A stretch of DNA of 63,850 bases, filler included, from Candidatus Fermentibacterota bacterium (GTDB taxonomy: Bacteria; JAFGKV01), in assembly GCA_016928395.1 (NCBI GenBank). It is 7 parts of 7 records of this genome, joined end to end, with 100 filler letters (N's around TTAATTAATTAA, not from the genome) between each part and the next. Parts side by side here need not be neighbours in the genome. Positions count along the whole stretch, not along the records: positions 15,315 to 25,036 come from JAFGKV010000107.1; positions 25,137 to 40,281 come from JAFGKV010000108.1; 5 more parts are not named here. One strand, written 5' to 3'. Below the pieces are notes generated by a model. That model was not told where the DNA came from and did no database searches. It saw only the letters and a list, made by a program, of their open reading frames with translations. Position numbers and translations under genes: made by a program. Each line of letters opens with the position of its first letter. The stretch's first letter is position 1. This document shows positions 1 to 29,986 of this stretch, in pieces.

Positions 1-3000
1 GATCAGGTTCCCGGTGGTTCTGATCCCGATGCTGATGAAACCGAGGATCTGACGATTCTGTTGAGCTACAAGCGGACCCCAGCGACTGCGAATTGGACTC
101 AGATCGCCCAAATCCAGAATTCGGCCACCCAGCCCGATTCGTTCCTGTGGAACATCTCGGGGCTGGCCGAAGGAACCCAGTATGCGCTTCGGGCCATCGC
201 CAGGGATCCTTCGTCCTTCGCGGATACGGCTCTGGTGCAGCCCTTCACCATCAACCGGCCGGATACGCCGTCCGTCACCGTGATCCAGCCCAATGGCGGC
301 GAGGTCATTTTGGGGCTGTACATGGTCAAATGGCGGGCCACGGATCCCGACTCGCTCTACGGCGAGCCGAACCTCAGCCTCCGCATCGATGGGTGGTACT
401 CGCCGAATGCGGGGGCGAGTTGGCAGCCCATGGTGTGGGACAGCAATCTGAATGACGGCCAGGAGCAGTGGGATACTTCGAATCTGGATGACGGTGAGGA
501 GTACCTGGTGAGACTCCGCGTGACAGACCCCCGCGGTCTGTGGGCCGAGGACACCTCGAATGGTGTGTTCACCATCGATAACAATGATCCGCCGGATGAG
601 GTTGTGCTCATCGCGCCCAATGGGGGAGAAACCTGGTACGGCGCCCAGACAGTTCGGTGGTTTGCCAGCGATCCTGATCAGCAGGACACCTTGCGAATCA
701 AACTGAACTATCGGCGATACGACCCGGCAAATCCGCAATTCTGGAATCTTATCGCGCCCGATGCCGGGGACCTTTCCAATACCGGGCAGTACCAGTGGAG
801 CATACCGACATACCTGCAGGGCCAGTACGAAATGCAGGTGGTGGCCATTGACAAGGGGGGTCTGAGCGCTTCCGATACTTCCGACGCCCCCTTTGTCATC
901 AATTCGCCTGATCCTCCCACCGTGCAGGTTACCTCCCCCAACGGCGGCGAATTCTGGACAGGCATCCAGACCATACGATGGACCGCGACCGACCCAGATC
1001 TCCAGTTCGGCGACACGCTGGCCGTCGCCATCGAGGTATCGCCCGACAGCGGTTCGACATGGATCGCCGAAGCCCAGGGTCTGGCCAATACCGGCGCATA
1101 CCAGTGGAATACCGATCAATCCGTCTATCCCGATGGTGCCCTCTACCTGATTCGCGTCTGCGCCACCGACACGTTCGTCGGCACCACGGTGTGCGATGTA
1201 AGCGACGGGCCATTTTACGTGCTCAACGACGATAGCCCGCCATCGGTAGGGGTGCTCTATCCCAATGGCGGCGAAAGCGTGCGAAACGAGGTGCTGGTGC
1301 GGTGGCTGGCCACCGACCCTGATACCACCATAGGTGACACGCTGGCAGTCGGCATTTCCTTTAGCGCGGATAGCGGGGCCTCGTGGACTGACCTGGCCGG
1401 CGGCCTGGCCAATACCGGGTCATGGCTTTGGGACATTCGTACTCTGGATGATGGCGATCAGTATCTCGTGCGGATCTCGGCCACAGACCGGCAGCAAGTG
1501 ACCGCATACGACACCTCCGACAGTACATTCGCGGTGTTCAACGATCCTGACAACCCCAGTGTCACAGTTACTTCACCCAATGGCGGCGAGCGATGGTTGG
1601 GGGTGCAGGAAGTGCTCTGGGACGCCGATGACCCCGATCTCTTCGTGGGAGACACTCTGTCTGCCACGATTTGGGTGGATTCGAGCGCCACGTCCGGCTT
1701 CCAACCCTTGCTTCTGGCCCAGGGCATACCGGGGCTTCCCGGCCGCTACGTGTGGGATACGGCCGCGTGGGGGCTTCCCGACGGCGATTGGTACCGGATC
1801 CGGGTGCGCGTCACCGACACCGATTCCCTCTCCTCCACCGACGATTCCGACGAGCCGTTTCTGCTGTTCAACAACAATGATCCGCCTACCATCTCCATTC
1901 TCCAGCCCCAGGAAGGCGACATCTGGAAAGGCGAGCAGACCATCCGGTGGTCTGCCACGGATCCCGATTTGATATGGGGGGATACCCTGGCCGTTTCGCT
2001 CTACGTCAGAGGCTCTTCTGTGCAGAGCTGGACACCCGTGGCCTTGGGCCTTGCCAATACGGGATCGCGCCTGTGGGATACCGGAAGCGTGCCTGATGGG
2101 CTCACCTACCAGATCAGGGCAGTGGCTCGGGATTCGTCGTGGCTTGAAGCCGCTGACATCTCGGGAGTTTTCGCGGTGGAGAACGTGAACGAGCCGCCGG
2201 CGCCTTTTGATCTGGTGTCGCCGGTCGAGGGTGCCACCGTGACGGTGTTCAAGCCGATGTTGCTCTGGCGAAGGGCTCTCGATATCGATGCCGGCGACCG
2301 GGTATCGTACGAGGTCGTCTACTGGCCCGACGGCGGCACTCCGATTCGATTGAGTGCCGGTCTTGACACAACCCTCACCGACCTGGGCTGGCCACAGCCC
2401 CTGATGGATGACACCAAGTATCACTGGTATGTCGAGGCCACTGACAGTCTCGGCCCCGCGACAACCCGCAGCCGCCAGACCTGGTGGTTTGTCACGAATG
2501 TTGACGGCAATGATACTCCTCAGCCGTTCAACCTTCTGGCGCCGCCCGATGGGGCATTAGTTCACCCGGATTCGGTGGTATTCCGGTGGACTGCGTCCTA
2601 CGACGAGGACGTGCTCGACTCTCTGCGCTATGAGCTGGCCGTGGATACCTTGCCCAGCCTGGCCACCGCCGAGCGGATCGACGCAGGGGGGGCGCTTTCC
2701 TGGCATATTCATCCCCTTCAGGACAATGCAACCCACTTCTGGGCGGTGCGCGCCTATGACCTGCATGGCGCAGAGCGTTGGAGCGACGAGACATGGCGGT
2801 TCACCACTGACCGCGGCAATGACGGGCCGATGCCCTTCAGCCTGAGGTTCCCTCCTTCAGGCACGGTGCTATCTACTGCTGAGAGGGACACATTGAGACT
2901 ACGGTGGTTCGCATCCAGCGACCCAGATCCGCTGGATACCATTACCTACGCCGTTGTCGTCCTGGACAGCGTGCATCCGGCGGATCCGGATTGGGCCGGA

Positions 3001-3804
3001 CAGACGACGGTACTTGATGCGAGCAGCGGCACAGCCCTGCATCTCAGGGCCGCCCTGGACACAGCAGGTATCGGTTTTCACGATAACCGCATCTATCGAT
3101 GGAGCGTTATCGCCACAGACAGCCGCGGCGTATCCACGGTATCCACGGAGACCTGGTGGTGTGCCACCAACGATGCCAATGAGCCGCCCCTTCTGTTCGA
3201 TCTGCTGTCTCCCTGTGACGGGTGTACCCTGAGTTCGGCCACTCCCCAGTTCTCTTGGCAGGCAGCCCTGGATCCCGATCCTCTGGATGCCCTTACCTAT
3301 CTTCTTGAGTACGATGTCGATCCTTCCTTCCCCACGCTGGTCGCGCATTCGGGCCTCGGCTCGACGTCCTGGGAGCCGTCCGAGCCGTTCCGTGACCGCG
3401 GCACGGTGTACTGGCGGGTCTGGGCAGTGGATGCAGGCGGCTTGCGGACTCGGTGTCGCGAGGAGTGGGAGTTCGTGATTCTTCCCCAGGCGATGATGGA
3501 GGGGTTGATCAACTACCCGAACCCATTCGCCGCTGGCCGGGAGATCACCCGTGTCCAGTACATTCTCCGGTCAGATGCGCGGGTCGAGATCAAGGTCTAT
3601 GACCTGCTGGGCGACCCGGTATGGCGGTGGTCGTGCGGGGTCGGTGAGGCGGGGGGCCGCACGGGCACTAATGTCGTCACGTGGGACGGACGCACCGAGG
3701 CTGGTACCGTGGTGGCCAATGGCGGATATCTTTGCGTGGTCAAGGCGTTTCCCCCGGGAGGGCACAGCGCCGAGGGGATGCGCAAGATCGCCGTCATGAA
3801 GTGA
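1..3804 (+). CDS. Large secreted/surface protein with tandem Ig-like/Fn3-like repeats and a C-terminal FlgD-Ig/T9SS-CTD-like domain (5' truncated by window edge)
   Basis: Frame is open from base 1. About six ~110-aa repeats (PxVxVxxPNGGExWxG..RWxAxDPD..GLANTG..WD), then four PxPFxLxxP Fn3-like units, ending in NYPNPF...IKVYDLLG...WDGR...NGGY...KIAVMK. Confidence 0.8.
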   Translation, partial: DQVPGGSDPDADETEDLTILLSYKRTPATANWTQIAQIQNSATQPDSFLWNISGLAEGTQYALRAIARDPSSFADTALVQPFTINRPDTPSVTVIQPNGGEVILGLYMVKWRATDPDSLYGEPNLSLRIDGWYSPNAGASWQPMVWDSNLNDGQEQWDTSNLDDGEEYLVRLRVTDPRGLWAEDTSNGVFTIDNNDPPDEVVLIAPNGGETWYGAQTVRWFASDPDQQDTLRIKLNYRRYDPANPQFWNLIAPDAGDLSNTGQYQWSIPTYLQGQYEMQVVAIDKGGLSASDTSDAPFVINSPDPPTVQVTSPNGGEFWTGIQTIRWTATDPDLQFGDTLAVAIEVSPDSGSTWIAEAQGLANTGAYQWNTDQSVYPDGALYLIRVCATDTFVGTTVCDVSDGPFYVLNDDSPPSVGVLYPNGGESVRNEVLVRWLATDPDTTIGDTLAVGISFSADSGASWTDLAGGLANTGSWLWDIRTLDDGDQYLVRISATDRQQVTAYDTSDSTFAVFNDPDNPSVTVTSPNGGERWLGVQEVLWDADDPDLFVGDTLSATIWVDSSATSGFQPLLLAQGIPGLPGRYVWDTAAWGLPDGDWYRIRVRVTDTDSLSSTDDSDEPFLLFNNNDPPTISILQPQEGDIWKGEQTIRWSATDPDLIWGDTLAVSLYVRGSSVQSWTPVALGLANTGSRLWDTGSVPDGLTYQIRAVARDSSWLEAADISGVFAVENVNEPPAPFDLVSPVEGATVTVFKPMLLWRRALDIDAGDRVSYEVVYWPDGGTPIRLSAGLDTTLTDLGWPQPLMDDTKYHWYVEATDSLGPATTRSRQTWWFVTNVDGNDTPQPFNLLAPPDGALVHPDSVVFRWTASYDEDVLDSLRYELAVDTLPSLATAERIDAGGALSWHIHPLQDNATHFWAVRAYDLHGAERWSDETWRFTTDRGNDGPMPFSLRFPPSGTVLSTAERDTLRLRWFASSDPDPLDTITYAVVVLDSVHPADPDWAGQTTVLDASSGTALHLRAALDTAGIGFHDNRIYRWSVIATDSRGVSTVSTETWWCATNDANEPPLLFDLLSPCDGCTLSSATPQFSWQAALDPDPLDALTYLLEYDVDPSFPTLVAHSGLGSTSWEPSEPFRDRGTVYWRVWAVDAGGLRTRCREEWEFVILPQAMMEGLINYPNPFAAGREITRVQYILRSDARVEIKVYDLLGDPVWRWSCGVGEAGGRTGTNVVTWDGRTEAGTVVANGGYLCVVKAFPPGGHSAEGMRKIAVMK

Positions 3805-3835
3805 CGGCCTTTCCAACGAGCGCGGAGGTTTGTAC

Positions 3836-4735
3836 ATGAGATGGACTGTGTTCGTGGCCATTGCTTTGGCCTTGCCGTGCATGGCAGCCGAATGGTGGGA
3901 GGAGGAGCTGCAAGCTCAGGAGGCTGTGGAGGAGGGCACTCCCGTGCAGGCTTGTGCAGGCAAGGTATTGTGGACTCAGGGCTTTATCGAGGTCGTGGGA
4001 GAAGCGGCCTGCGACATGGATGAGGCGCTGAGCGAGGGCCACTGCTACGTGATGGCGCGGCGCGCGGCCATCGTACTGGCCCAGGAGAAGCTGTCGGAGA
4101 CGGTGAACGGCATCGTCGTTGACGGCGAGACCCTCCTGCGCAATGAGCTGCTGAGCTCCAGTACGCTTCGCACCACGATGCGAGGCCTGGTGAAGGGCGC
4201 TCAGGTGGTTCACGAGGACAGGGTGACCCTGCCCGACGGCTCCATTCTGGCGCGGGTGTGGATGCAGCTTCCCCTGCGGGGAGAGGGCGGTCTTGCGGCC
4301 CCCATCCTCGAACATGCCGCCCAACTGTCGGCCCAGCGGCCGGTCCCTGCATTCTCGTTCGACAAGGCGCCGCCTGCTGAGCCCTTCACGGGGATCATTG
4401 TAAACGCCTCAGGTCTTCAGGCGGTGCCCGCCATGGCGCCACGGCTGCTGGTGCTGAAGGAGTTGACCGCTGCCCTGAGTGTTGAACACGTGGAGCTTGC
4501 CACGGCGCAGGAGATAGGCCTCGTGGAGTATGCGGGCTCAGTGGACGATGCCAGGGCGCTTGGCGCCCGCATCGGTTCAAATCCCTTGGTGCTGAAAGCC
4601 GAATCGAGCCACGGCGCCACCAAGTCCGACCTGGTCATCTCCGCGCAGGAGGGCACGCGGTTGGCCGCGGGTGACCCCGAGGGGACTCTGGTCAGGGCCT
4701 GCAAGGTCGTCTTCGCGGGGCATCAGTTCATCTGA
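3836..4735 (+). CDS. Secreted LPP20-family-like protein
   Basis: GGAGG RBS at 3824-3828 and a signal peptide. Motifs ARRAAIVLAQEKLSETVNGIVVDGET, RGLVKGAQVV and FTGIIVNASGL..PAMAPR resemble LPP20-type proteins. Confidence 0.55.
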   Translation: MRWTVFVAIALALPCMAAEWWEEELQAQEAVEEGTPVQACAGKVLWTQGFIEVVGEAACDMDEALSEGHCYVMARRAAIVLAQEKLSETVNGIVVDGETLLRNELLSSSTLRTTMRGLVKGAQVVHEDRVTLPDGSILARVWMQLPLRGEGGLAAPILEHAAQLSAQRPVPAFSFDKAPPAEPFTGIIVNASGLQAVPAMAPRLLVLKELTAALSVEHVELATAQEIGLVEYAGSVDDARALGARIGSNPLVLKAESSHGATKSDLVISAQEGTRLAAGDPEGTLVRACKVVFAGHQFI

Positions 4736-24144: not shown

Positions 24145-24638
24145 TGAGAGTCTGGAAGTACGGCGACGACATCAATACCGATATGCTGTTCCCCGGCAAG
24201 TACACGTATACCTGCGCCACGGCAGAAGAGATCAAGCCACATCTCTTGGAAGACCTCGATCCCCGGTTCGCCACCGAGGTGCAGCCGGGCGACATCATCC
24301 TGGCGGGCAAGAACTTCGGCTGCGGCAGCTCCCGGGAGCAGCCCGCGCTGGGCTTGAGGGCCGTGGGTGTTGCCGCGGTGGTGGCGAAGAGCTTTTCGAG
24401 AATCTTCTACCGGGCCGCCATCAACCAGGGCCTTTTGCTGGTCGAGTGCCCGCAGGCGGTGGATGCGTACGCCGAGGGTGATGGGGCGACCCTCGATCCC
24501 GCCGCGGGAACCATCACGGTCGGCGCGAAAACCTTCACGTTTCCCAAGTTGCCGGAGCGCATCCTGGCCATCAGGGATGCGGGAGGACTCCTGCCGTACA
24601 CCTTGGCAAGGCTGAAGGAACAGAGGGAATTCGCGTAG
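24141..24638 (+). CDS. 3-isopropylmalate dehydratase/homoaconitase small subunit (LeuD/HacB type)
   Basis: VWKYGDDINTD, GKNFGCGSSRE, SFSRIFYRAAINQGL, AGGL; ATGA overlap with the large subunit. Confidence 0.92.
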   Translation: MMRVWKYGDDINTDMLFPGKYTYTCATAEEIKPHLLEDLDPRFATEVQPGDIILAGKNFGCGSSREQPALGLRAVGVAAVVAKSFSRIFYRAAINQGLLLVECPQAVDAYAEGDGATLDPAAGTITVGAKTFTFPKLPERILAIRDAGGLLPYTLARLKEQREFA

Positions 24639-24698
24639 CGACTCCGCAGGCTGCCGCATAGTGCCCATCCAGTCATCTCACGCAAGGAGTGTCTCTAC

Positions 24699-25036
24699 AT
24701 GTGTGTCGTGAAGCGAACCGGCGCATCAGCGAGGCTTCGGGCGCGTGTCCCATGGGCCGGTGTGTGGGCCGCAGTACTGGCATGGTTTGGGACGGCTGTG
24801 GCCGGCACAGAGGGGCCCCGGCTTGCCATCACCATCGATGACCTCCCCTTCGTCAACGCCGTGAAGCCGGGAGACTCGCGGATAGAGGCGACGGGACGCA
24901 TTCTGTCGTCCCTGACGGCGCACGATGTGCCGGCTACCGGGTTCGTGGTCTGCGATCGGATAGGGGGGCAGGAGGAGATCCTGCAGCGGTGGATGGATGC
25001 CGGCATGGAGCTGGGCAACCACTCCTGTTCGCACCC
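24699..25036 (+). CDS. Signal peptide plus N-terminal half of a polysaccharide deacetylase (cut by linker)
   Basis: AITIDDLP (CE4 motif 1), VPATGFV, ELGNHSCSH (motif 2). Confidence 0.85.
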
Positions 25037-25137
25037 NNNNNNNNNNNNNNNNNNNNNNNNNNNNNNNNNNNNNNNNNNNNTTAATTAATTAANNNNNNNN
25101 NNNNNNNNNNNNNNNNNNNNNNNNNNNNNNNNNNNNG

Positions 25138-26469
25138 ATGCCGCTTGGCAAATGGGCGGAGGAGGTGCGTGCGTGCGCCGACACCCTGGCACGATTCACC
25201 GGCACGCGCCCCCACTGGTTCCGCTATCCCTTCCTACAGATGGGCGCGACCGCCAGGCTGCGGGATTCGGCAATGGCAATCGTGCACGACAGCGGCCAAC
25301 GGATCGCCCACGTATCGGTCGATACCGGCGAGTGGGCGCTGGTCAAGCCGTATGTGGATGCATGGCGCGCGGGGGACGCGCGCCTGGCGAGAACGGTCGG
25401 AGACGCCTATGTGGAGCACCTATTGAACGCCATCGACCACTACCGTGCCGTGGCCCAGGCCCGATTCGGGCATGATGTCCCCCAGGTGCTTCTCCTCCAC
25501 GCCAATGCGCTGGCTGCCGACTACCTGGATGCGCTGCTGACGGCACTGGAAGACCGCGGCGTCACTTTCGTCTCTTTGGCGGATGCACTCTCCGACTCGG
25601 TGTATGCGCTGCCTGACGGGTACGTGGGGCCCATCGGCCTGTCGTGGCTGTATCGTGCGGCGCCCTATCTGGAGGGCGCCTGGTCATGGGATGATGCACA
25701 GGTGAAAGCCTTTGGCCAACGCTTCGGCGGCCGGACTGATCCCGACTCCTGTTGGATCGATCAAGACCTTCGCGTCCGCAGGCTCCGCTCTGGCGTGTGG
25801 GTTGTCACCCACGAAAGGCCGTGGCCCGCCAACTCGTTGGTGGCCGAGCTGGCCGATTCAACCATCTTGCTCGTCGACACGCCCTACACCCCGGCGGCGA
25901 CCCGCAGCATGCTCCAGTGGATCTTTGCCCGGTTCGGACGCCGCCCGATGATCGCGGTGAATACCCATTTCCACTACGATGCCCTGGGAGGCAATGAGGC
26001 GCTCGGGGAGGCGGGCGTGCCTGTCTATGGTTCCGACTTCACCGTGCGGCTGCTGGCCGAGCGGGAAGACGCCATGCGGGAGCAGGTCGTGGGCTGGCTC
26101 CGCGGTCGGCCCGAAGGAGACTGGTTCGCAGATCTGAGGCTGGTTGCCCCGGACCATCTCTTCCCCGTGGACGAAGGGCTCGTCCTGGTGCGTGGGGATA
26201 CGGTGCGGGTGATCTACCCCGGCCCGGCCCATTCATCCGACAATGTCGTGGTCTACCTTCCCAGCCAGAGGACCCTGTTCGGTGGATGCATGCTCCTCAG
26301 CGGCGACAGAATCGGCAACACCACCGATGCCGATGTGCCCGCCTGGCCTGCGGCGGTGGAGCGACTGAGGGGGCTACCGGCAGATTTCGTGATACCCGGC
26401 CACGGCGATCTCTTCACGCCGGGCCTGCTGGATCATACGGTTCACGTGCTGGCCGCATCTCAAGAATAG
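25138..26469 (+). CDS. C-terminal half of a polysaccharide deacetylase fused to a subclass B1-like metallo-beta-lactamase (5' cut by linker)
   Basis: CE4 motifs WFRYPFL, VDTGEW and VLLLHAN, then MBL motifs LVDTP, THFHYD, GPAHSSDN, LFGGC, IGN, IPGHG. Confidence 0.88.
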   Translation: MPLGKWAEEVRACADTLARFTGTRPHWFRYPFLQMGATARLRDSAMAIVHDSGQRIAHVSVDTGEWALVKPYVDAWRAGDARLARTVGDAYVEHLLNAIDHYRAVAQARFGHDVPQVLLLHANALAADYLDALLTALEDRGVTFVSLADALSDSVYALPDGYVGPIGLSWLYRAAPYLEGAWSWDDAQVKAFGQRFGGRTDPDSCWIDQDLRVRRLRSGVWVVTHERPWPANSLVAELADSTILLVDTPYTPAATRSMLQWIFARFGRRPMIAVNTHFHYDALGGNEALGEAGVPVYGSDFTVRLLAEREDAMREQVVGWLRGRPEGDWFADLRLVAPDHLFPVDEGLVLVRGDTVRVIYPGPAHSSDNVVVYLPSQRTLFGGCMLLSGDRIGNTTDADVPAWPAAVERLRGLPADFVIPGHGDLFTPGLLDHTVHVLAASQE

Positions 26470-26555
26470 CAGCTTTCGGCTCGTCGCTCAGGGGCGGGTG
26501 CCGTTGACCTGCCGCGAACCATCGGTCGGTGGGAGGCGAGAAGACGGGGCGGACG

Positions 26556-27977
26556 CTACCGGATGGAGTGGCGAAGCCGGGAGAACCCCATGGTGGCGAC
26601 CGAAAGGGCGCCGTGGAACATGACCTGCACGTCATACCACCCGCGGATCCCGGCGATCCTGCGCAGGACGTATGAGGGGCGGGCATAGTAGCGGGCATAG
26701 CCCCGTTCCACCAAGTCGACTATCTGTTCCTCAGTCATGGTGGGCGCGACAAAGGGCGCCGCCTTGAAGAGCATGCCAAGTCGCTCCTGGGGAGCATTGA
26801 GTCGTCCATAGCGGTCAATCTCGTCGTACAGCTTTGTGCCGGGAAACGGGGTCAGGGGGAAGAACTCCACGTAGAAGTGATTCATGCTGCACGCGAACCG
26901 TATGGTCTCCTGCCCCTCTTCATAGGTTTCCCCGGGGATCCCGAACACATAGGTGCCCATGCTCTCGATGCCCGCCCGGTGGGTGAGGCACACCGCCTCA
27001 CGGCCCTGCTCTACCGTGGTGCGCTTGTTGAGCGTCGCCAGGTTCTTCTCCACACCGCTTTCCAGCCCGTAGCTGATGCACCAGCATCCGGCGCGCTTCA
27101 TCATCCGCAGCAGTTCCTCGTCGACCGTGTCGACCCGGCCGGTGCACCAGAACACAATCTTCAGATTGCGCCGCAGGATCTCCTCGCAGATTCCCATGGC
27201 ACGCTCTCGATTCAGCATGAACTGCTCGTCCCAGAATTTGATCTCGCGGGCCCCGTGCCTTCGTACATACGACTCGATCTCATCCACCACGTGGCCGGGC
27301 GAGCGATACCGCGTCGCGCCGTTGATGGTCTTGAAGCAGAAAATGCATCGGCTGGCGCAGCCGCGCGAGCTTATCACCTGCATCGCCGGAAGTCGCTTCA
27401 CCTGGCCATAGGAAGGCCGATACGAATAGTGGGCGACGAGGTCATAGGCTGGCATGGGCAGCGCATCGAGGTCAGGAATGGGAGCGCGGGGAGGGTTCTG
27501 TACGATGAGGTCGCCGTCCCGCCAGACGCAGCCCTGCACGCCATCCAGATCGGCCCCTGACGCCACACGTGCGGCAAGTTCTACCACCGTGAGGTCGCCC
27601 TCCCCGTATACCACGGCGTCCAGCGCGGGCTCGTCGAGGCAGCGTGACATGAAGCCGGTGGGGGCCGGACCGCCTGCAACGGTGAATGTCTTCGGATCCA
27701 GACGTTTCACCCGACGGAATAGCTCCGTGGCCCGATTCCACATGAGCGTGACGCTGTAGACGCCCAGAAGATCAGGCTTCCATGCCTCGATCTCCCCCAG
27801 CAGTTGCGCTTCGGTGTGAAAGTGACCATCGAGGATCCGCACGTCATGCCCCGCCTGGCGCAAGGCCGCACCTACGGAGAGCACTCCCGGCATGGGCCAG
27901 ACGCCCGATACGGCCCGTGTCTGGACCGAACGGATATCCTCGGTTCTCCAGGAGGGGGAGGTGAGAAGGCATTTCAT
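26556..27977 (-). CDS. B12-binding domain radical SAM protein
   Basis: GGPAPT, GEGD, SRGCASRCIFC, GLESG, FGIPGET, TPFPGT. Confidence 0.93.
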   Translation of the reverse strand: MKCLLTSPSWRTEDIRSVQTRAVSGVWPMPGVLSVGAALRQAGHDVRILDGHFHTEAQLLGEIEAWKPDLLGVYSVTLMWNRATELFRRVKRLDPKTFTVAGGPAPTGFMSRCLDEPALDAVVYGEGDLTVVELAARVASGADLDGVQGCVWRDGDLIVQNPPRAPIPDLDALPMPAYDLVAHYSYRPSYGQVKRLPAMQVISSRGCASRCIFCFKTINGATRYRSPGHVVDEIESYVRRHGAREIKFWDEQFMLNRERAMGICEEILRRNLKIVFWCTGRVDTVDEELLRMMKRAGCWCISYGLESGVEKNLATLNKRTTVEQGREAVCLTHRAGIESMGTYVFGIPGETYEEGQETIRFACSMNHFYVEFFPLTPFPGTKLYDEIDRYGRLNAPQERLGMLFKAAPFVAPTMTEEQIVDLVERGYARYYARPSYVLRRIAGIRGWYDVQVMFHGALSVATMGFSRLRHSIR

Positions 27978-28147
27978 GAAGGTTTCCTATCTTTAGGCAC
28001 GCGCCCGTGACCACGGGGTGGGGTCACCATCCACGAATGGCGCGCGTTGTGCGGGGTGCTCCCCACGGGCAGCGGAATGCTGCGGACGGGAAAGAGTGCC
28101 GACAGCAGGTGCAAGACCACCGTCGAGGTGAAGACCGCCGTGGATCA

Positions 28148-29986
28148 TCACGGGGAGCCAAAGTCCTTCACTGTTATGTCGCGGGAATGGGGATCGTACC
28201 TGAGCAGATACCCGCTCCGGCCCGGGAAGCGTTGCAGACATGCCCGGTCTGTCTCAGGGCTGATGTGCCGTGCATAGATGATCGGTCTGCGCAAGAACGG
28301 ATCATTGTGTATGAAGCCAGAGGTGTAATAGTCGGCGGGCTCCTCCGGGCACTGCATGAACACCACGGCGGGGGTCTTTACCTGCTGTCGCGCGACTTCG
28401 TGAACCCTCGGATCAACGCCAAGGCGACGGTCAGTCAAATCACGAACCCGCATGGGCACGTACAGCACGAACGACACGAGGAACAGCGCTCCGACGGCGG
28501 CTAATGCGGCATTCGACCCGGCAACACCGAACCTCCGGCGGAGGCCGCTGACCCCTCCACGGATGCCCAGAGCCGAGAGGATCACGAGTCCCGGCCAGGA
28601 ATCAAGGTAGTGTCGCGGCCCATGTTCGACTGCGGAATACCAACTGAAGAACAGAATGCTCCCGGTCATCAGCACTGCCAGCGCAAAGGCCCAACTCCAT
28701 ACGGAGCGGCGGCTGCACCAGAATCCCGCCATTGCCGGTATCAGCGAGATGAGCGGCCACCCGAACAGACCCGTCGAGAGGGTGGCAGACTGCAGCAGGA
28801 GGTTCCGGGCTCCTTTCGCGGGGTTGTGACCCATGCTGCCGTAGCTGGGCCCGTGGGAGGCGGAATCACCAAAGCCCAAAAGCGAATTGGGGTAGATGCA
28901 TTGCCGTGCCGTGCACAGCGCGTGGCCGGTCACCGCATGGTTGTAGAACAACCAAAGGGTGATGAGGGGAACAGCGCCCAGCAGGATCCTCCCCCACCGT
29001 GCCCACAGCGGACCCCGGCGTTTCCACGAGCTCAACTCCACCACCATGATGGGCACCAGCAGAATCCCCGCCGCCAACGGGCGGACGAGGAAGAGTGCGC
29101 CGACGGCGACGCCGACACACCAATCCCACAATCGCCGATTGCCCCTTCCGTGGGCCTTGGCCACCGCCAGAAACACGAATGATGAAAGGGCCAGAGAGGT
29201 TACGTGGTAGCTGTGGCAGGCCGCCAGGAACACGAAGAAGGGAGAGATGGCACCAATGGCCAGTGCCAAGACCGCCAGGCCCGCGCCATGAAGGTGCGCG
29301 GCCAGGAAATAAAGAAGCCAGAGTGAAAGCGCACCAGTGAGCGGGCCGACCGCCCACGCCAACCCGAATCGGTCGGCGAGCCCCAGAAGTAGTGGATGGC
29401 CCGGTTCATAGGGAGTGATCCATCGGCCGTTCCAGATGACCATGCCGCGGAGCGCGAACGCATCGACGCACGCCGGCGGGGGTGCGCTCAGCGACCCCGC
29501 TGCCAGCGCCCTGCCCTGAAACAAATACTGCGCTTCGTCCCGGCTTCCGGGAAGCCTTTGCATGGGCCACGCTGCCACCGCAAGGAGTACGCAGAGCCCG
29601 AGAAACACCAAAGTCCACGGCCGCAGCCGCCCCGCGACTCTGTCCAGCGCCCCCGCGATGTCAAACTTCAGCAGCGCCCCACTCATCAAGGCCAACGCGC
29701 CGATGGCTGGCCCCAAGAAGAGAAGCTGCCACAGCTTGTCCCACCGGCGGCGGGACAGCACGGTGCTCACCTGCCTGCCGGAGACCATTCCGTAGGCTAT
29801 GACGCCCGCAATCAAGACCGCCACGCTCCCAATCAAGAGCACCCGATACGCCCGCCGGGAGGATTCCCCGCGCATCGTATCTTGAACAAGAGCGCCAAGG
29901 CTCCCGTTGTCGTCGCCCGGGCCTTTCGCGGGAGAGCCCGAAATCATGGGTTCAAGTGGGGGAGGCGCTTCGGCTCGGAATCGCAT
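28148..29986 (-). CDS. GT-C fold membrane glycosyltransferase (ArnT/PMT-like); start uncertain
   Basis: Many TM segments, DEAQYLFQG early loop, YEPGHPLLL, LFLVRP, GPRHY. Confidence 0.75.
   Translation of the reverse strand: MRFRAEAPPPLEPMISGSPAKGPGDDNGSLGALVQDTMRGESSRRAYRVLLIGSVAVLIAGVIAYGMVSGRQVSTVLSRRRWDKLWQLLFLGPAIGALALMSGALLKFDIAGALDRVAGRLRPWTLVFLGLCVLLAVAAWPMQRLPGSRDEAQYLFQGRALAAGSLSAPPPACVDAFALRGMVIWNGRWITPYEPGHPLLLGLADRFGLAWAVGPLTGALSLWLLYFLAAHLHGAGLAVLALAIGAISPFFVFLAACHSYHVTSLALSSFVFLAVAKAHGRGNRRLWDWCVGVAVGALFLVRPLAAGILLVPIMVVELSSWKRRGPLWARWGRILLGAVPLITLWLFYNHAVTGHALCTARQCIYPNSLLGFGDSASHGPSYGSMGHNPAKGARNLLLQSATLSTGLFGWPLISLIPAMAGFWCSRRSVWSWAFALAVLMTGSILFFSWYSAVEHGPRHYLDSWPGLVILSALGIRGGVSGLRRRFGVAGSNAALAAVGALFLVSFVLYVPMRVRDLTDRRLGVDPRVHEVARQQVKTPAVVFMQCPEEPADYYTSGFIHNDPFLRRPIIYARHISPETDRACLQRFPGRSGYLLRYDPHSRDITVKDFGSP

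What the first reader, a model, noticed from the sequence alone, without database searches (positions are those of the whole stretch)
24699..26469. Secreted polysaccharide deacetylase fused to a B1-type metallo-beta-lactamase
Seen: in one frame on one contig, CE4 motifs 3-5 run into an MBL domain with the full B1 ligand set (HFHYD, AHS, GGC, PGHG) and IGN. Motifs 1-2 and a signal peptide sit immediately before the linker and appear to be the same gene. Known: His-His-His plus Asp-Cys-His defines subclass B1 (NDM/VIM/IMP). Inference: a bifunctional envelope enzyme coupling glycan deacetylation to beta-lactam hydrolysis, or a non-resistance role for a B1 domain.
Basis: partly seen in the sequence, partly recalled or inferred. 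Interest (0 to 1): 0.72.

Follow-up and report, generated by a model that had tools for sequence, protein, structure and literature searches.

The report
Sugar deacetylase fused to metallo-beta-lactamase
One gene, interrupted only by a tiny assembly gap, encodes an exported protein that joins a sugar-deacetylating enzyme to a zinc beta-lactamase-type enzyme, a natural pairing found in many sediment and soil bacteria that nobody appears to have studied.

Summary
The window is a chain of contigs joined by N+TTAATTAATTAA+N linkers. The finding spans one joint, 25037-25136.

- Left of the joint (24699-25036): a signal peptide plus CE4 (NodB) motifs 1-2.
- Right of the joint (25138-26469): one 443-aa frame carrying CE4 motifs 3-5 and a complete MBL domain with H116/H118/D120/H196/C221/H263.
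- An 80%-identical intact 563-aa orthologue from a Candidatus Eisenbacteria MAG aligns colinearly to both contig ends. Exactly 12 nt lie between them, in frame.

The MBL domain is closest to SPS-1 and SPM-1, by sequence for the window and by fold for a model of the orthologue. That places it in the small SPM-like branch of subclass B1. It scores 162.9 bits against NCBI's B1 model, below the 200-bit cut-off.

The fusion is a real family. At least 60 CE4-MBL proteins were gathered, mostly from Myxococcota MAGs, all under generic names. Both active sites are invariant in the 41 full-length members checked. Three proteins carry the reverse order, MBL-CE4, with a different CE4 lineage.

Five literature searches found no description of the fusion. 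Function is inferred, not shown. My reading is an exported two-headed envelope enzyme: a glycan deacetylase plus a carbapenem/cephalosporin-type hydrolase.

The parts
24684..24689 (+). Shine-Dalgarno-like AAGGAG, 9 nt before the ATG
   Evidence: Read from the sequence. No sigma-70-like promoter was found by the simple scan.
24699..24803 (+). Start codon and predicted Sec signal peptide (residues 1-35). Basic n-region K5, R6, R12, R14, R16; hydrophobic W19-A35; A-V-A before G36.
   Evidence: Translation. Hydrophobic maximum at residues 24-35. Cleavage site judged by eye; no signal-peptide predictor was available. Homologues all begin with a hydrophobic segment, and 17 of 41 have a lipobox-like Cys.
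24804..25036 (+). CE4 (NodB-homology) domain, first part. Motif 1 T-I-D47-D48 (24831-24842); motif 2 H108-S-C-S-H112 (25020-25034). Ends with CC of a Pro codon at the contig end.
   Evidence: PF01522 E 1.3e-11, 44.9 bits, above the 23.1-bit cut-off. D47, H108 and H112 are in 41 of 41 fusion homologues and D48 in 40 of 41.
25037..25136 (.). Artificial contig joint (N44 + TTAATTAATTAA + N44) between G000 contigs C139 and C140. It stands for about 12 real bases.
   Evidence: Six identical linkers in the window. Contig numbering. 12-nt in-frame interval in relative L010. Logan contig runs over the C139 end.
25137..25725 (+). CE4 domain, second part. Motif 3 R29-x-P31-F (25222-25233); motif 4 D62...W66 (25321-25335); long helical insert; motif 5 L120-H121 (25495-25500); conserved C-terminal extension (G167, S169, L171, R173, W182, R195).
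   Evidence: R29, P31, D62 and H121 are in 41 of 41 homologues. Family HMM matches. The fold of the orthologue matches CE4 structures at Z 20-22.
25726..25755 (+). Short linker (about 10 residues, GGRTDPDSCW) between the CE4 extension and the MBL domain.
   Evidence: Stand-alone CE4 relatives end just after the 'RFG' that precedes this stretch. PDB and NCBIfam alignments of the MBL domain start at residues 207-209.
25756..26466 (+). SPM-1/SPS-1-like subclass-B1-type MBL domain. H277-F-H279-Y-D281 (25966-25980; H116, H118, D120); H365 (26230-26232; H196); C384 (26287-26289; C221); R391; N394 (26317-26319; N233); H422 (26401-26403; H263).
   Evidence: NF033088 162.9 bits, blaSPM 140.3, B2 80.3. 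PDB phmmer: 6cqs 211 bits, SPM-1 150. All six Zn ligands are in 41 of 41 homologues.
26467..26469 (+). Stop codon TAG
   Evidence: No intrinsic-terminator-like site was found nearby.

Best explanation
Window 24699-26469 is one gene of about 560 codons, broken only by an assembly gap of about 12 nt. It encodes an exported two-domain metallo-hydrolase.

Shown by sequence, alignment and fold:
1. An N-terminal signal-like segment.
2. A complete CE4/NodB deacetylase domain with the Asp-His-His metal triad, the catalytic Asp and the catalytic His.
3. After a linker of about 10 residues, a complete di-zinc MBL domain of the SPM-1/SPS-1-like branch of subclass B1. It has all six Zn ligands, N233, a short L3 hairpin and a long alpha3-alpha4 insert.
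4. The pairing is a conserved family, mostly in Myxococcota plus this Eisenbacteria-like genus. Both active sites are invariant, and the two families have been joined in both orders.

Inferred:
- After export, the MBL domain hydrolyses beta-lactams, most likely carbapenems and some cephalosporins, as SPS-1 and SPM-1 do.
- The CE4 domain de-acetylates an envelope or extracellular glycan. Peptidoglycan is the leading candidate but is not shown.
- The rigid fusion keeps the lactamase at the cell wall or glycan layer, giving one co-expressed envelope-protection module against lysozyme-type and beta-lactam-type attack.
For: One gene:
- Colinear alignment of both contig ends to L010 leaves exactly 12 nt between them, in frame.
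- The same spacing is found in the 6 full-length homologues aligned.
- A Logan contig runs on past the contig end.

Real fusion, not a chimera:
- 41 of the 120 listed hits are proteins of 514-637 aa carrying PF01522+PF00753, from NCBI, JGI, ENA and Logan assemblies.
- By my HMMs, the 205 proteins gathered split into 60 CE4-MBL, 3 MBL-CE4, 82 CE4-only and 60 MBL-only.
- 12 representatives at the 50%-identity level cover both halves in one stretch.
- 13 forward and 2 reversed fusions occur among 80 species-representative loci.

Both sites under selection:
- H116, H118, D120, H196, C221 and H263 are in 41 of 41.
- CE4 D47, H108, H112, R29, P31, D62 and H121 are in 41 of 41, and D48 in 40 of 41.

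B1 type:
- NCBIfam B1 162.9 bits against B2 80.3.
- Best solved relatives are SPS-1 at 211 bits and SPM-1 at 150 bits.
- Orthologue model: pLDDT 94.4, pTM 0.88.
- VIA-align Z scores on that model: SPS-1 39.8 (rmsd 1.2 A over 238 residues), SPM-1 36.6, CcrA 31.3, B2 Sfh-I 31.3, B3 L1 19.0.

Carboxylate-type substrate. A cationic residue is kept on the 221-233 loop in 40 of 41 members, at mutually exclusive positions:
- K/R at position 224 only in 13.
- K/R three residues before N233 only in 23, the window's R391 among them.
- K/R elsewhere on the loop in 4.
From recalled knowledge, this mirrors K224 in NDM/IMP against R228 in VIM.

SPS-1 hydrolyses carbapenems and some cephalosporins (passages of 10.1101/336024).

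Export: hydrophobic N-termini throughout, with lipobox-like Cys in 17 of 41.

Selection for the pairing: the reversed-order fusions carry CE4 domains from a different starred clade. A single clade of all fusion CE4 domains is rejected at p-AU 0.002.
Against: - No activity, expression or localisation data exist. No RNA holder was listed.
- The MBL domain is below NCBI's curated B1 cut-off, as were all 9 relatives tested (131-199 bits against 200). It is only 28-36% identical to VIM, IMP and NDM.
- The window's protein has Leu at position 224.
- SPS-1, the closest solved relative, has high Km values.
- CE4 substrate is open. Sequence and fold matches to xylan esterases, peptidoglycan deacetylases and chitin deacetylases are tied at Z 20-22, and NCBIfam PgdA scores 26 bits against a cut-off of 800.
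- Gene neighbourhoods of 13 fusion loci share nothing. Cell-wall genes sit next to only 2 of them: SLT in L021 and YkuD in L024.
- 65 of 80 CE4 loci have no MBL within 6 kb, so the two families are not generally linked.
- The AU-test group was named after the tree was seen. Non-monophyly can also arise from loss of the MBL part.
- The K/R switch follows the two main clades, so it may reflect few events.
Confidence: 0.55

Rival explanations
1. The B1-like domain is not a resistance enzyme. The two fused hydrolases act one after the other on the same cell-wall or exopolysaccharide substrate. For example, the MBL domain would cleave a D-Ala-D-Ala-like amide or a lactam in material that the CE4 domain has de-acetylated, on the organism's own wall or on prey walls in predatory Myxococcota.
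For: - CE4 domains are typically fused to partners that work on the same polymer. Multidomain xylanase-CE4 entries 2c71 and 7ax7 are among the hits.
- The two families were joined in both orders.
- A short linker and pTM 0.88 suggest one rigid unit.
- SLT or YkuD sit next to 2 of 13 fusion loci.
- The native role of B1 enzymes in Myxococcota is stated to be unsettled (abstract of PMC13616975).
Against: - From my own knowledge, no B1/B2 MBL is known to cleave peptides or glycan-borne amides.
- The active site, N233/Y233 and the mobile cationic residue look like ordinary beta-lactam-binding B1 sites.
- The closest solved relatives are proven beta-lactamases.
- Neighbourhoods are not cell-wall operons.
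Confidence: 0.15
2. A tandem antibiotic-inactivating enzyme. The CE4 domain works as an esterase or amidase on acetylated beta-lactams, for example 3'-acetoxy cephalosporins of the cephalosporin C type. The MBL domain opens the ring of the same molecules.
For: - CE4 includes O-acetyl esterases. Acetylxylan esterases 7fbw and 2cc0 are among the best structural matches.
- Fusion implies a shared substrate or a shared location.
- SPS-1-type enzymes accept some cephalosporins.
Against: - From my own knowledge, no CE4 enzyme is known to act on beta-lactams; the known cephalosporin C deacetylases belong to CE7.
- Stand-alone orthologues of this CE4 are widespread without any MBL, in 65 of 80 loci, which points to an MBL-independent glycan role.
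Confidence: 0.08
3. Artefact or broken gene. The two contigs are not neighbours, or a stop or frameshift lies in the gap, so the window holds a truncated CE4 fragment and a separate CE4(partial)-MBL pseudogene. Alternatively the fusion is an assembly chimera.
For: - The junction is not covered by sequence in the window.
- One relative, L026, shows frame breaks. P0031 diverges exactly at the domain junction.
Against: - Colinearity with L010 leaves a 12-nt in-frame interval.
- A same-genus genome, G001, has an intact 594-aa open frame.
- The CE4(3-5)-MBL junction lies inside one contig.
- The same architecture appears in dozens of independent assemblies.
- A Logan contig continues 8.1 kb past the contig end.
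Confidence: 0.03

Closest known systems
SPS-1 (Sediminispirochaeta smaragdinae B1 MBL, PDB 6cqs)
   Same: - Best solved relative: 211 bits, E 2.7e-61, over residues 207-438.
- The orthologue model superposes at Z 39.8, rmsd 1.2 A over 238 residues, 40% identity.
- Shares the extended alpha3-alpha4 helices, the short L3 hairpin, and the same spacing from C221 to N233.
   Different: - SPS-1 has Gly at position 116 and a water-mediated Zn1 site. The window's domain has the canonical His116.
- SPS-1 is a single-domain protein of 276 aa. Here the domain is the C-terminal half of a protein of about 560 aa with no signal peptide of its own.
SPM-1 (acquired B1 carbapenemase of Pseudomonas aeruginosa, PDB 2fhx/4bp0)
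   Same: - Full H116/H118/H196 and D120/C221/H263 ligand set.
- The same insert above the active site.
- 150 bits; blaSPM model 140.3 bits; Z 36.6.
- Y233, as in SPM-1, occurs in 17 of 41 family members.
   Different: - About 32-33% identity for the orthologue, far below the blaSPM cut-off of 500 bits.
- SPM-1 has K224. The window has L224 with R three residues before N233.
- SPM-1 is single-domain and mobile. This gene is chromosomal, in environmental bacteria.
CE4 / NodB-homology deacetylases (SpPgdA 2c1i, PdaC 6h8l, Bc1960 4l1g, acetylxylan esterases 7fbw and 2cc0)
   Same: - All five CE4 motifs and the Asp-His-His metal triad.
- PF01522 above its gathering score.
- Fold match at Z 20-22 over about 185-190 residues.
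   Different: - Only 18-27% identity.
- An extra helical insert of about 45 residues lies between motifs 4 and 5, plus a conserved C-terminal extension shared with stand-alone orthologues.
- Substrate cannot be assigned.
- Fused to an MBL.
Multidomain CE4 enzymes (xylanase-CE4 such as 2c71/7ax7; PgaB, recalled)
   Same: A CE4 domain is covalently joined to a second hydrolase in one exported protein.
   Different: In those, the partner is a glycoside hydrolase acting on the same polysaccharide. Here the partner is a beta-lactamase-type MBL with no known glycan activity.
Natural bifunctional beta-lactamase fusions (e.g. LRA-13, a class C + class D fusion from soil; recalled, not checked here)
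   Same: A beta-lactamase domain in a natural two-domain fusion from an environmental bacterium.
   Different: Those join two beta-lactamases. Here the partner is a carbohydrate esterase, and the lactamase is class B.

Membership tests
Subclass B1 metallo-beta-lactamase | Zn1 ligands His116-His118-His196 | tested here: met
   H277, H279 and H365 align to these positions in SPM-1 and SPS-1. They are invariant in 41 of 41 fusion homologues.
Subclass B1 metallo-beta-lactamase | Zn2 ligands Asp120-Cys221-His263 | tested here: met
   D281, C384 and H422, in 41 of 41. Position 121 is Ala, not the His of B3.
Subclass B1 metallo-beta-lactamase | Score above the curated cut-off of NCBIfam NF033088 (equivalog, 200 bits) | tested here: not met
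   162.9 bits over model positions 3-216 of 217. Nine relatives scored 131.5-199.2 bits, all below 200.
Subclass B1 metallo-beta-lactamase | MBL alpha-beta/beta-alpha fold closest to B1 structures | tested here: met
   Tested on a model of the 80%-identical orthologue P0002. Z scores: SPS-1 39.8, SPM-1 36.6, CcrA 31.3, BcII 29.9, VIM-2 28.1, B2 Sfh-I 31.3, B3 L1 19.0. Foldseek TM 0.91 to 6cqs.
Subclass B1 metallo-beta-lactamase | Zn-dependent hydrolysis of beta-lactams | not testable with these tools
   Needs enzyme assays.
SPM-1/SPS-1-like lineage (group B1-5 of Berglund et al. 2017, passages of PMC5637372) | Extended alpha3-alpha4 insert and shortened L3 hairpin; best scores to SPM/SPS rather than to other B1 families | tested here: met
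   Alignment to SPS-1 has only two small gaps and alignment to SPM-1 only a one-residue gap, with the insert region aligned in both. Helix 420-441 in the model. blaSPM is the best family-specific model. A tree that includes SPM-1 or SPS-1 was not made, because no stored sequence of them was on hand.
Subclass B2 metallo-beta-lactamase | Asn116 (NxHxD), mono-zinc; NCBIfam NF033087 cut-off 240 bits | tested here: not met
   His at position 116. 80.3 bits against a cut-off of 240.
Carbohydrate esterase family 4 (NodB homology domain) | Five motifs: TFDD, H(S/T)xxH, RxPY, DxxDW-like, LxH; Asp-His-His metal site; Pfam PF01522 | tested here: met
   TIDD, HSCSH, RYPF, DTGEW and LLHAN. PF01522 44.9 bits, above the 23.1-bit cut-off, on the N-terminal piece. 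Motif residues are invariant in the family. Fold Z 20-22.
Peptidoglycan GlcNAc deacetylase PgdA (equivalog) | NCBIfam NF045820 cut-off 800 bits; activity on peptidoglycan | tested here: not met
   26.2 bits on the N-terminal piece. This excludes membership of that equivalog, not peptidoglycan as a substrate.

The most novel reading that the evidence does not exclude
The B1 metallo-beta-lactamase fold has a native job in cell-wall or glycan chemistry. In this family, and in the independently formed reverse-order fusions, the MBL domain and the CE4 domain would act in sequence on one envelope substrate. Candidates are a D-Ala-D-Ala-like amide or a sugar-borne lactam in de-acetylated peptidoglycan, on the cell's own wall or on prey walls. 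Beta-lactam hydrolysis would then be a side activity that later became resistance.
Probability: 0.12. Interest if true: 0.9.

Novelty: new variant of a known kind. Interest (0 to 1): 0.6.

Why it matters
B1 metallo-beta-lactamases are the most worrying carbapenemases. Their origin and native function in environmental bacteria remain open.

Here a B1-type domain is hard-wired to a glycan deacetylase. The fusion has both active sites conserved, sits in an exported or lipid-anchored protein, and has arisen in both domain orders. That gives a concrete and testable hint about where, and next to what, these enzymes work in nature.

It also shows that annotation pipelines hide such domains. These proteins are named 'polysaccharide deacetylase family protein' and score below the curated B1 threshold, so resistome surveys based on cut-offs or product names will miss them.

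It enlarges the small SPM-1/SPS-1-like branch with many environmental members, both stand-alone and fused.

Tried and rejected
Reads and expression:
The continuation of the 9129-nt contig was therefore not seen.
- RNA evidence: no RNA holder was listed.

Scans that gave nothing:
- Pfam on the downstream piece did not report PF01522 at E <= 0.01.
- Promoter and terminator scan: nothing.
- Conserved neighbourhood: 45 neighbour ORFs from 12 of the 13 complete fusion loci (my gene caller listed none beside L029), plus 4 window ORFs, showed no shared partner genes.
- Earlier findings of this scan: none for this sequence.
- Relatives: the lineage is barely sampled. The match was found in G000 and in the one same-genus genome. 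It was not found with this query in the one other same-family genome, which is 98% complete.

Calls that failed and were redone:
- The search for related loci with alignment A1 failed for lack of a conserved stretch. It was redone with A2. Both search patterns came from the CE4 half, so that scan is biased towards CE4-bearing loci.

Limits of what was done:
- CE4 substrate could not be assigned from fold. The top CE4 rows differ by less than 2 Z units.
- Tree placement within B1: no stored sequences of SPM-1, SPS-1, B2 or B3 enzymes were on hand. The trees hold only VIM-1, IMP-1, SIM-1 and NDM-1 as named references, plus one MBL-fold outgroup. They were quick LG+G4 searches. Rows dropped were those without an MBL stretch covering at least 180 query positions.
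- 'Stand-alone' P0052 and P0066 lie inside fusion clades. They come from contigs of 1546 and 2045 nt, so they may be truncated fusions.

Literature:
- Five searches found no paper on a CE4-MBL fusion.
- PMC13616975 has 0 occurrences of deacetylase, fusion or fused in its text. Its 5 readable supplementary files have 0 occurrences of deacetylase, fusion or Eisenbacteria. One picture-only PDF was not searchable.
- PMC5637372 has 0 occurrences.
- Subscription journals are not covered.

Considered and rejected:
- Assembly chimera: rejected by the many independent assemblies.
- B2 or B3 membership: rejected by ligands and scores.
- CE4 pseudoenzyme: rejected because the motifs are intact.
Full report
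**1. What is in the sequence**

The window is not one molecule. It carries six identical joints of N44 + TTAATTAATTAA + N44, and the genome tool numbers the pieces as consecutive contigs of a 343-contig assembly. The finding spans the joint at 25037-25136.

Left of the joint, an ORF starts at ATG 24699, 9 nt after an AAGGAG. It runs to the contig end at 25036. It encodes:
- a basic-then-hydrophobic N-terminus (residues 1-35, A-V-A before G36);
- CE4 motif 1 (T-I-D47-D48);
- CE4 motif 2 (H108-S-C-S-H112).

Right of the joint, a single 443-aa frame (25138-26469) lies on one contig. It encodes:
- CE4 motifs 3-5 (R29-Y-P31-F, D62-T-G-E-W66, L120-H121);
- a short linker;
- an MBL domain with HFHYD (277-281), H365, GGC384, IGN394 and PGH422G.

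Pfam calls PF01522 on the left piece (E 1.3e-11) and PF00753 on the right piece (E 6e-16). It does not call PF01522 on the right piece at E <= 0.01.

**2. Is it one gene?**

The best homologue, P0002, is an intact 563-aa protein from a Candidatus Eisenbacteria MAG. It is 80% identical to the right piece and carries PF01522+PF00753.

Its locus L010 aligns at 1555-1766 to window 24825-25036 and at 1779-4630 to window 25137-27979. Exactly 12 nt of L010 fall between the two contig ends. They read c-CAC-CTC-GAT-ga. This completes the Pro codon that the left contig ends in, and the Glu codon whose last G opens the right contig.

Further support:
- The 6 full-length homologues aligned have the same spacing.
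- A same-genus genome has an uninterrupted 594-aa open frame.
- An independent Logan contig of 9129 nt in run X1 covers 24437-25036 and continues 8114 nt beyond the contig end.

I could not see what the Logan contig continues into.

I conclude that this is one gene of about 560 codons with about 12 nt unassembled. I give 3% to a stop or frameshift hidden in the gap.

**3. The MBL domain**

| Test | Result |
|---|---|
| NCBIfam bla_subclass_B1 | 162.9 bits over model positions 3-216 of 217; cut-off 200 |
| NCBIfam blaSPM | 140.3 bits |
| NCBIfam blaGMB | 132.1 bits |
| NCBIfam subclass B2 | 80.3 bits |
| PDB phmmer, 6cqs (SPS-1, named) | 211 bits |
| PDB phmmer, SPM-1 | 150 bits |
| PDB phmmer, Pontibacter MBL | 120 bits |
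| PDB phmmer, VIM enzymes | about 110 bits |
| tblastn against plasmids | VIM-1 35.7%, IMP 30-33%, SIM-1 27%, NDM 28% identity; all 3031 matching records below 60% |

Nine relatives tested, both fused and stand-alone, score 131-199 bits against the B1 model. All are under the cut-off.

An AlphaFold2 model of P0002 built on 41 family sequences has pLDDT 94.4 and pTM 0.88. Its C-terminal domain superposes as follows:
- SPS-1: Z 39.8, rmsd 1.2 A over 238 residues, 40% identity
- SPM-1: Z 36.6
- CcrA: Z 31.3
- Sfh-I (B2): Z 31.3
- BcII: Z 29.9
- VIM-2: Z 28.1
- L1 (B3): Z 19.0

The alignments to SPS-1 and SPM-1 need only one or two short gaps, and the long alpha3-alpha4 insert and the short L3 hairpin are aligned in both. 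These are the hallmarks of that small B1 branch (passages of 10.1101/336024; group B1-5 in passages of PMC5637372). Unlike SPS-1, the window's domain keeps His116.

In a quick tree of 104 MBL domains, the fused and stand-alone environmental sequences form a starred clade (99) apart from VIM-1, NDM-1, IMP-1 and SIM-1. The window pairs with P0002 (100). SPM-1 and SPS-1 themselves were not in the tree, because I had no stored sequence of them.

**4. The family**

- Of the 120 hits listed, 41 are proteins of 514-637 aa with both Pfam domains. They come from NCBI, JGI, ENA and Logan assemblies. Where named, they are called 'polysaccharide deacetylase family protein' or 'metallo-beta-lactamase class B'.
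- By my own HMMs, the 205 proteins gathered split into 60 CE4-MBL, 3 MBL-CE4, 82 CE4-only and 60 MBL-only.
- At the 50%-identity level, 12 representatives cover both halves in one stretch.
- Among 80 loci from species-representative genomes, 13 carry the forward fusion. They come from Polyangiaceae, Sandaracinaceae, Myxococcaceae, 'Deltaproteobacteria'/Myxococcota MAGs and the Eisenbacteria MAG. One of them, L026, has frame breaks.
- Two of the 80 carry a reversed single ORF, MBL then CE4 (L042, 551 aa; L050, 544 aa).
- The other 65 carry the CE4 gene alone, with no MBL within 6 kb. These are from Gemmatimonadota, Acidobacteriota, Emticicia and others.

Across the 41 full-length forward fusions:
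- all six Zn ligands are invariant;
- CE4 residues D47, H108, H112, R29, P31, D62 and H121 are invariant, and D48 is in 40 of 41;
- position 233 is Asn in 22 and Tyr in 17.

A cationic residue on the 221-233 loop is kept in 40 of 41, but at mutually exclusive places:
- K/R at 224 only in 13;
- K/R three residues before N233 only in 23, including the window's R391;
- elsewhere on the loop in 4.

This resembles the K224 (NDM/IMP) versus R228 (VIM) alternatives for binding the beta-lactam carboxylate, which I recall rather than tested. The two states follow the main clades, so few switch events may be involved.

All N-termini are hydrophobic. 17 of 41 have a lipobox-like Cys by my regular expression. 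That fits the statement that myxobacterial MBLs are predicted lipoproteins (abstract of PMC13616975).

**5. How often was the fusion made?**

In a CE4 tree of 141 rows:
- The three reversed fusions sit in a starred clade (99) with 12 stand-alone CE4 proteins, apart from all forward fusions.
- P0002's CE4 domain sits in a starred clade (99) with 15 stand-alone CE4 proteins.
- Forcing all fusion CE4 domains into one clade costs 377 log-likelihood units (p-AU 0.002).

Two caveats apply. The group was named after the tree was seen, and loss of the MBL part can give the same picture. The reversed order by itself requires a separate joining or a rearrangement.

The same MBL clade also occurs fused to BNR/Sortilin-type propellers and to a YdjM-type membrane domain.

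**6. The CE4 domain and the context**

Sequence matches to solved CE4 enzymes are weak (best E 2.7e-9). Fold matches are tied at Z 20-22. They include an acetylxylan esterase, BA3943, SpPgdA, PdaC and Bc1960. The substrate is therefore open.

The domain has a helical insert of about 45 residues between motifs 4 and 5 and a conserved C-terminal extension. Stand-alone orthologues share the extension and end just after it.

Neighbours of 12 of the 13 complete fusion loci have nothing in common. An SLT transglycosylase follows the gene in L021, and a YkuD L,D-transpeptidase precedes it in L024.

In the window, the gene follows an aconitase-type large/small subunit pair. It precedes, on the other strand, a B12-binding radical-SAM gene, which is the only neighbour shared with L010.

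**7. Reading**

Shown: one exported two-domain protein with two intact, conserved metal-hydrolase sites. The second is of the SPM/SPS-like B1 type. The architecture is recurrent.

Inferred: the MBL domain hydrolyses beta-lactams, as its closest solved relatives do. SPS-1 takes carbapenems and some cephalosporins. The CE4 domain de-acetylates an envelope glycan. The rigid fusion keeps the lactamase at the wall as a combined protection module.

I give this combined reading 0.55. The rivals are:
- a shared non-antibiotic wall substrate (0.15);
- a tandem enzyme acting on acetylated beta-lactams (0.08);
- an artefact or broken gene (0.03).

**8. Novelty**

Both domain families are textbook, and the fused sequences already sit in public databases under generic names. 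However:
- five full-text searches found no description of the fusion;
- the 2026 phylogenomic survey of B1 enzymes does not mention it, in the text, in section 6 part 1 or in 5 of its 6 supplementary files;
- Berglund et al. 2017 does not mention it in the passages searched.

Subscription journals were not searchable. I rate it a new variant of a known kind, with interest 0.6.

Noticed in passing
window 15259, 25081, 40326, 47096, 51048, 55925: The window is a concatenation of seven contigs joined by N44+TTAATTAATTAA+N44 six-frame-stop linkers. Any feature that spans one of these joints needs the same adjacency check as here.
   Followed up: partly
L042:5932-7587 and L050:5944-7578 (Myxococcota MAGs); proteins P0121, P0122, P0123: Reverse-order fusions: signal peptide, then a B1-like MBL domain, then a CE4 domain, in one ORF of 544-551 aa. 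The full B1 ligand set and the CE4 motifs are present. Only 3 clusters were found. Their CE4 domains belong to a different clade from those of the forward fusions.
   Followed up: partly
proteins P0102, P0150, P0092, P0067: The same environmental B1-like MBL clade is also fused to BNR/Sortilin-Vps10-type propeller domains (562-566 aa), to a YdjM-type inner-membrane domain (597 aa) and to PF21827. This MBL lineage seems prone to domain fusions.
   Followed up: no
L026:1326-2720 and protein P0031: L026 (Myxococcota MAG) has the fusion split over several frames, so it is a possible pseudogene or carries sequencing errors. P0031 is 84% identical to the window's CE4 part. It diverges into an unrelated Arg-rich tail exactly where the MBL domain should begin, which may be a frameshifted fusion.
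   Followed up: no
window 26556-27977 (-) and 28148-29986 (-): Downstream on the other strand lies a B12-binding radical-SAM protein of 473 aa, conserved and colinear with relative L010. After it comes a 612-aa multi-pass membrane protein with no Pfam match at E <= 1e-4. By eye it looks like a GT-C/ArnT-type glycosyltransferase.
   Followed up: no
G000:C301:2588-2902 (-), C320:130-351 (-), C184:45237-45476 (+): Three further weak matches to the B1 model elsewhere in the same genome (42.6, 23.8 and 22 bits). They are probably ordinary MBL-fold hydrolases.
   Followed up: no
L021:7498-10092 and L024:63-935: Cell-wall enzymes sit directly next to two of the fusion genes: an SLT lytic transglycosylase (865 aa) downstream in a Sandaracinaceae MAG, and a YkuD L,D-transpeptidase upstream in a Deltaproteobacteria MAG. 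This is 2 of 13 fusion loci, so it is anecdotal.
   Followed up: no
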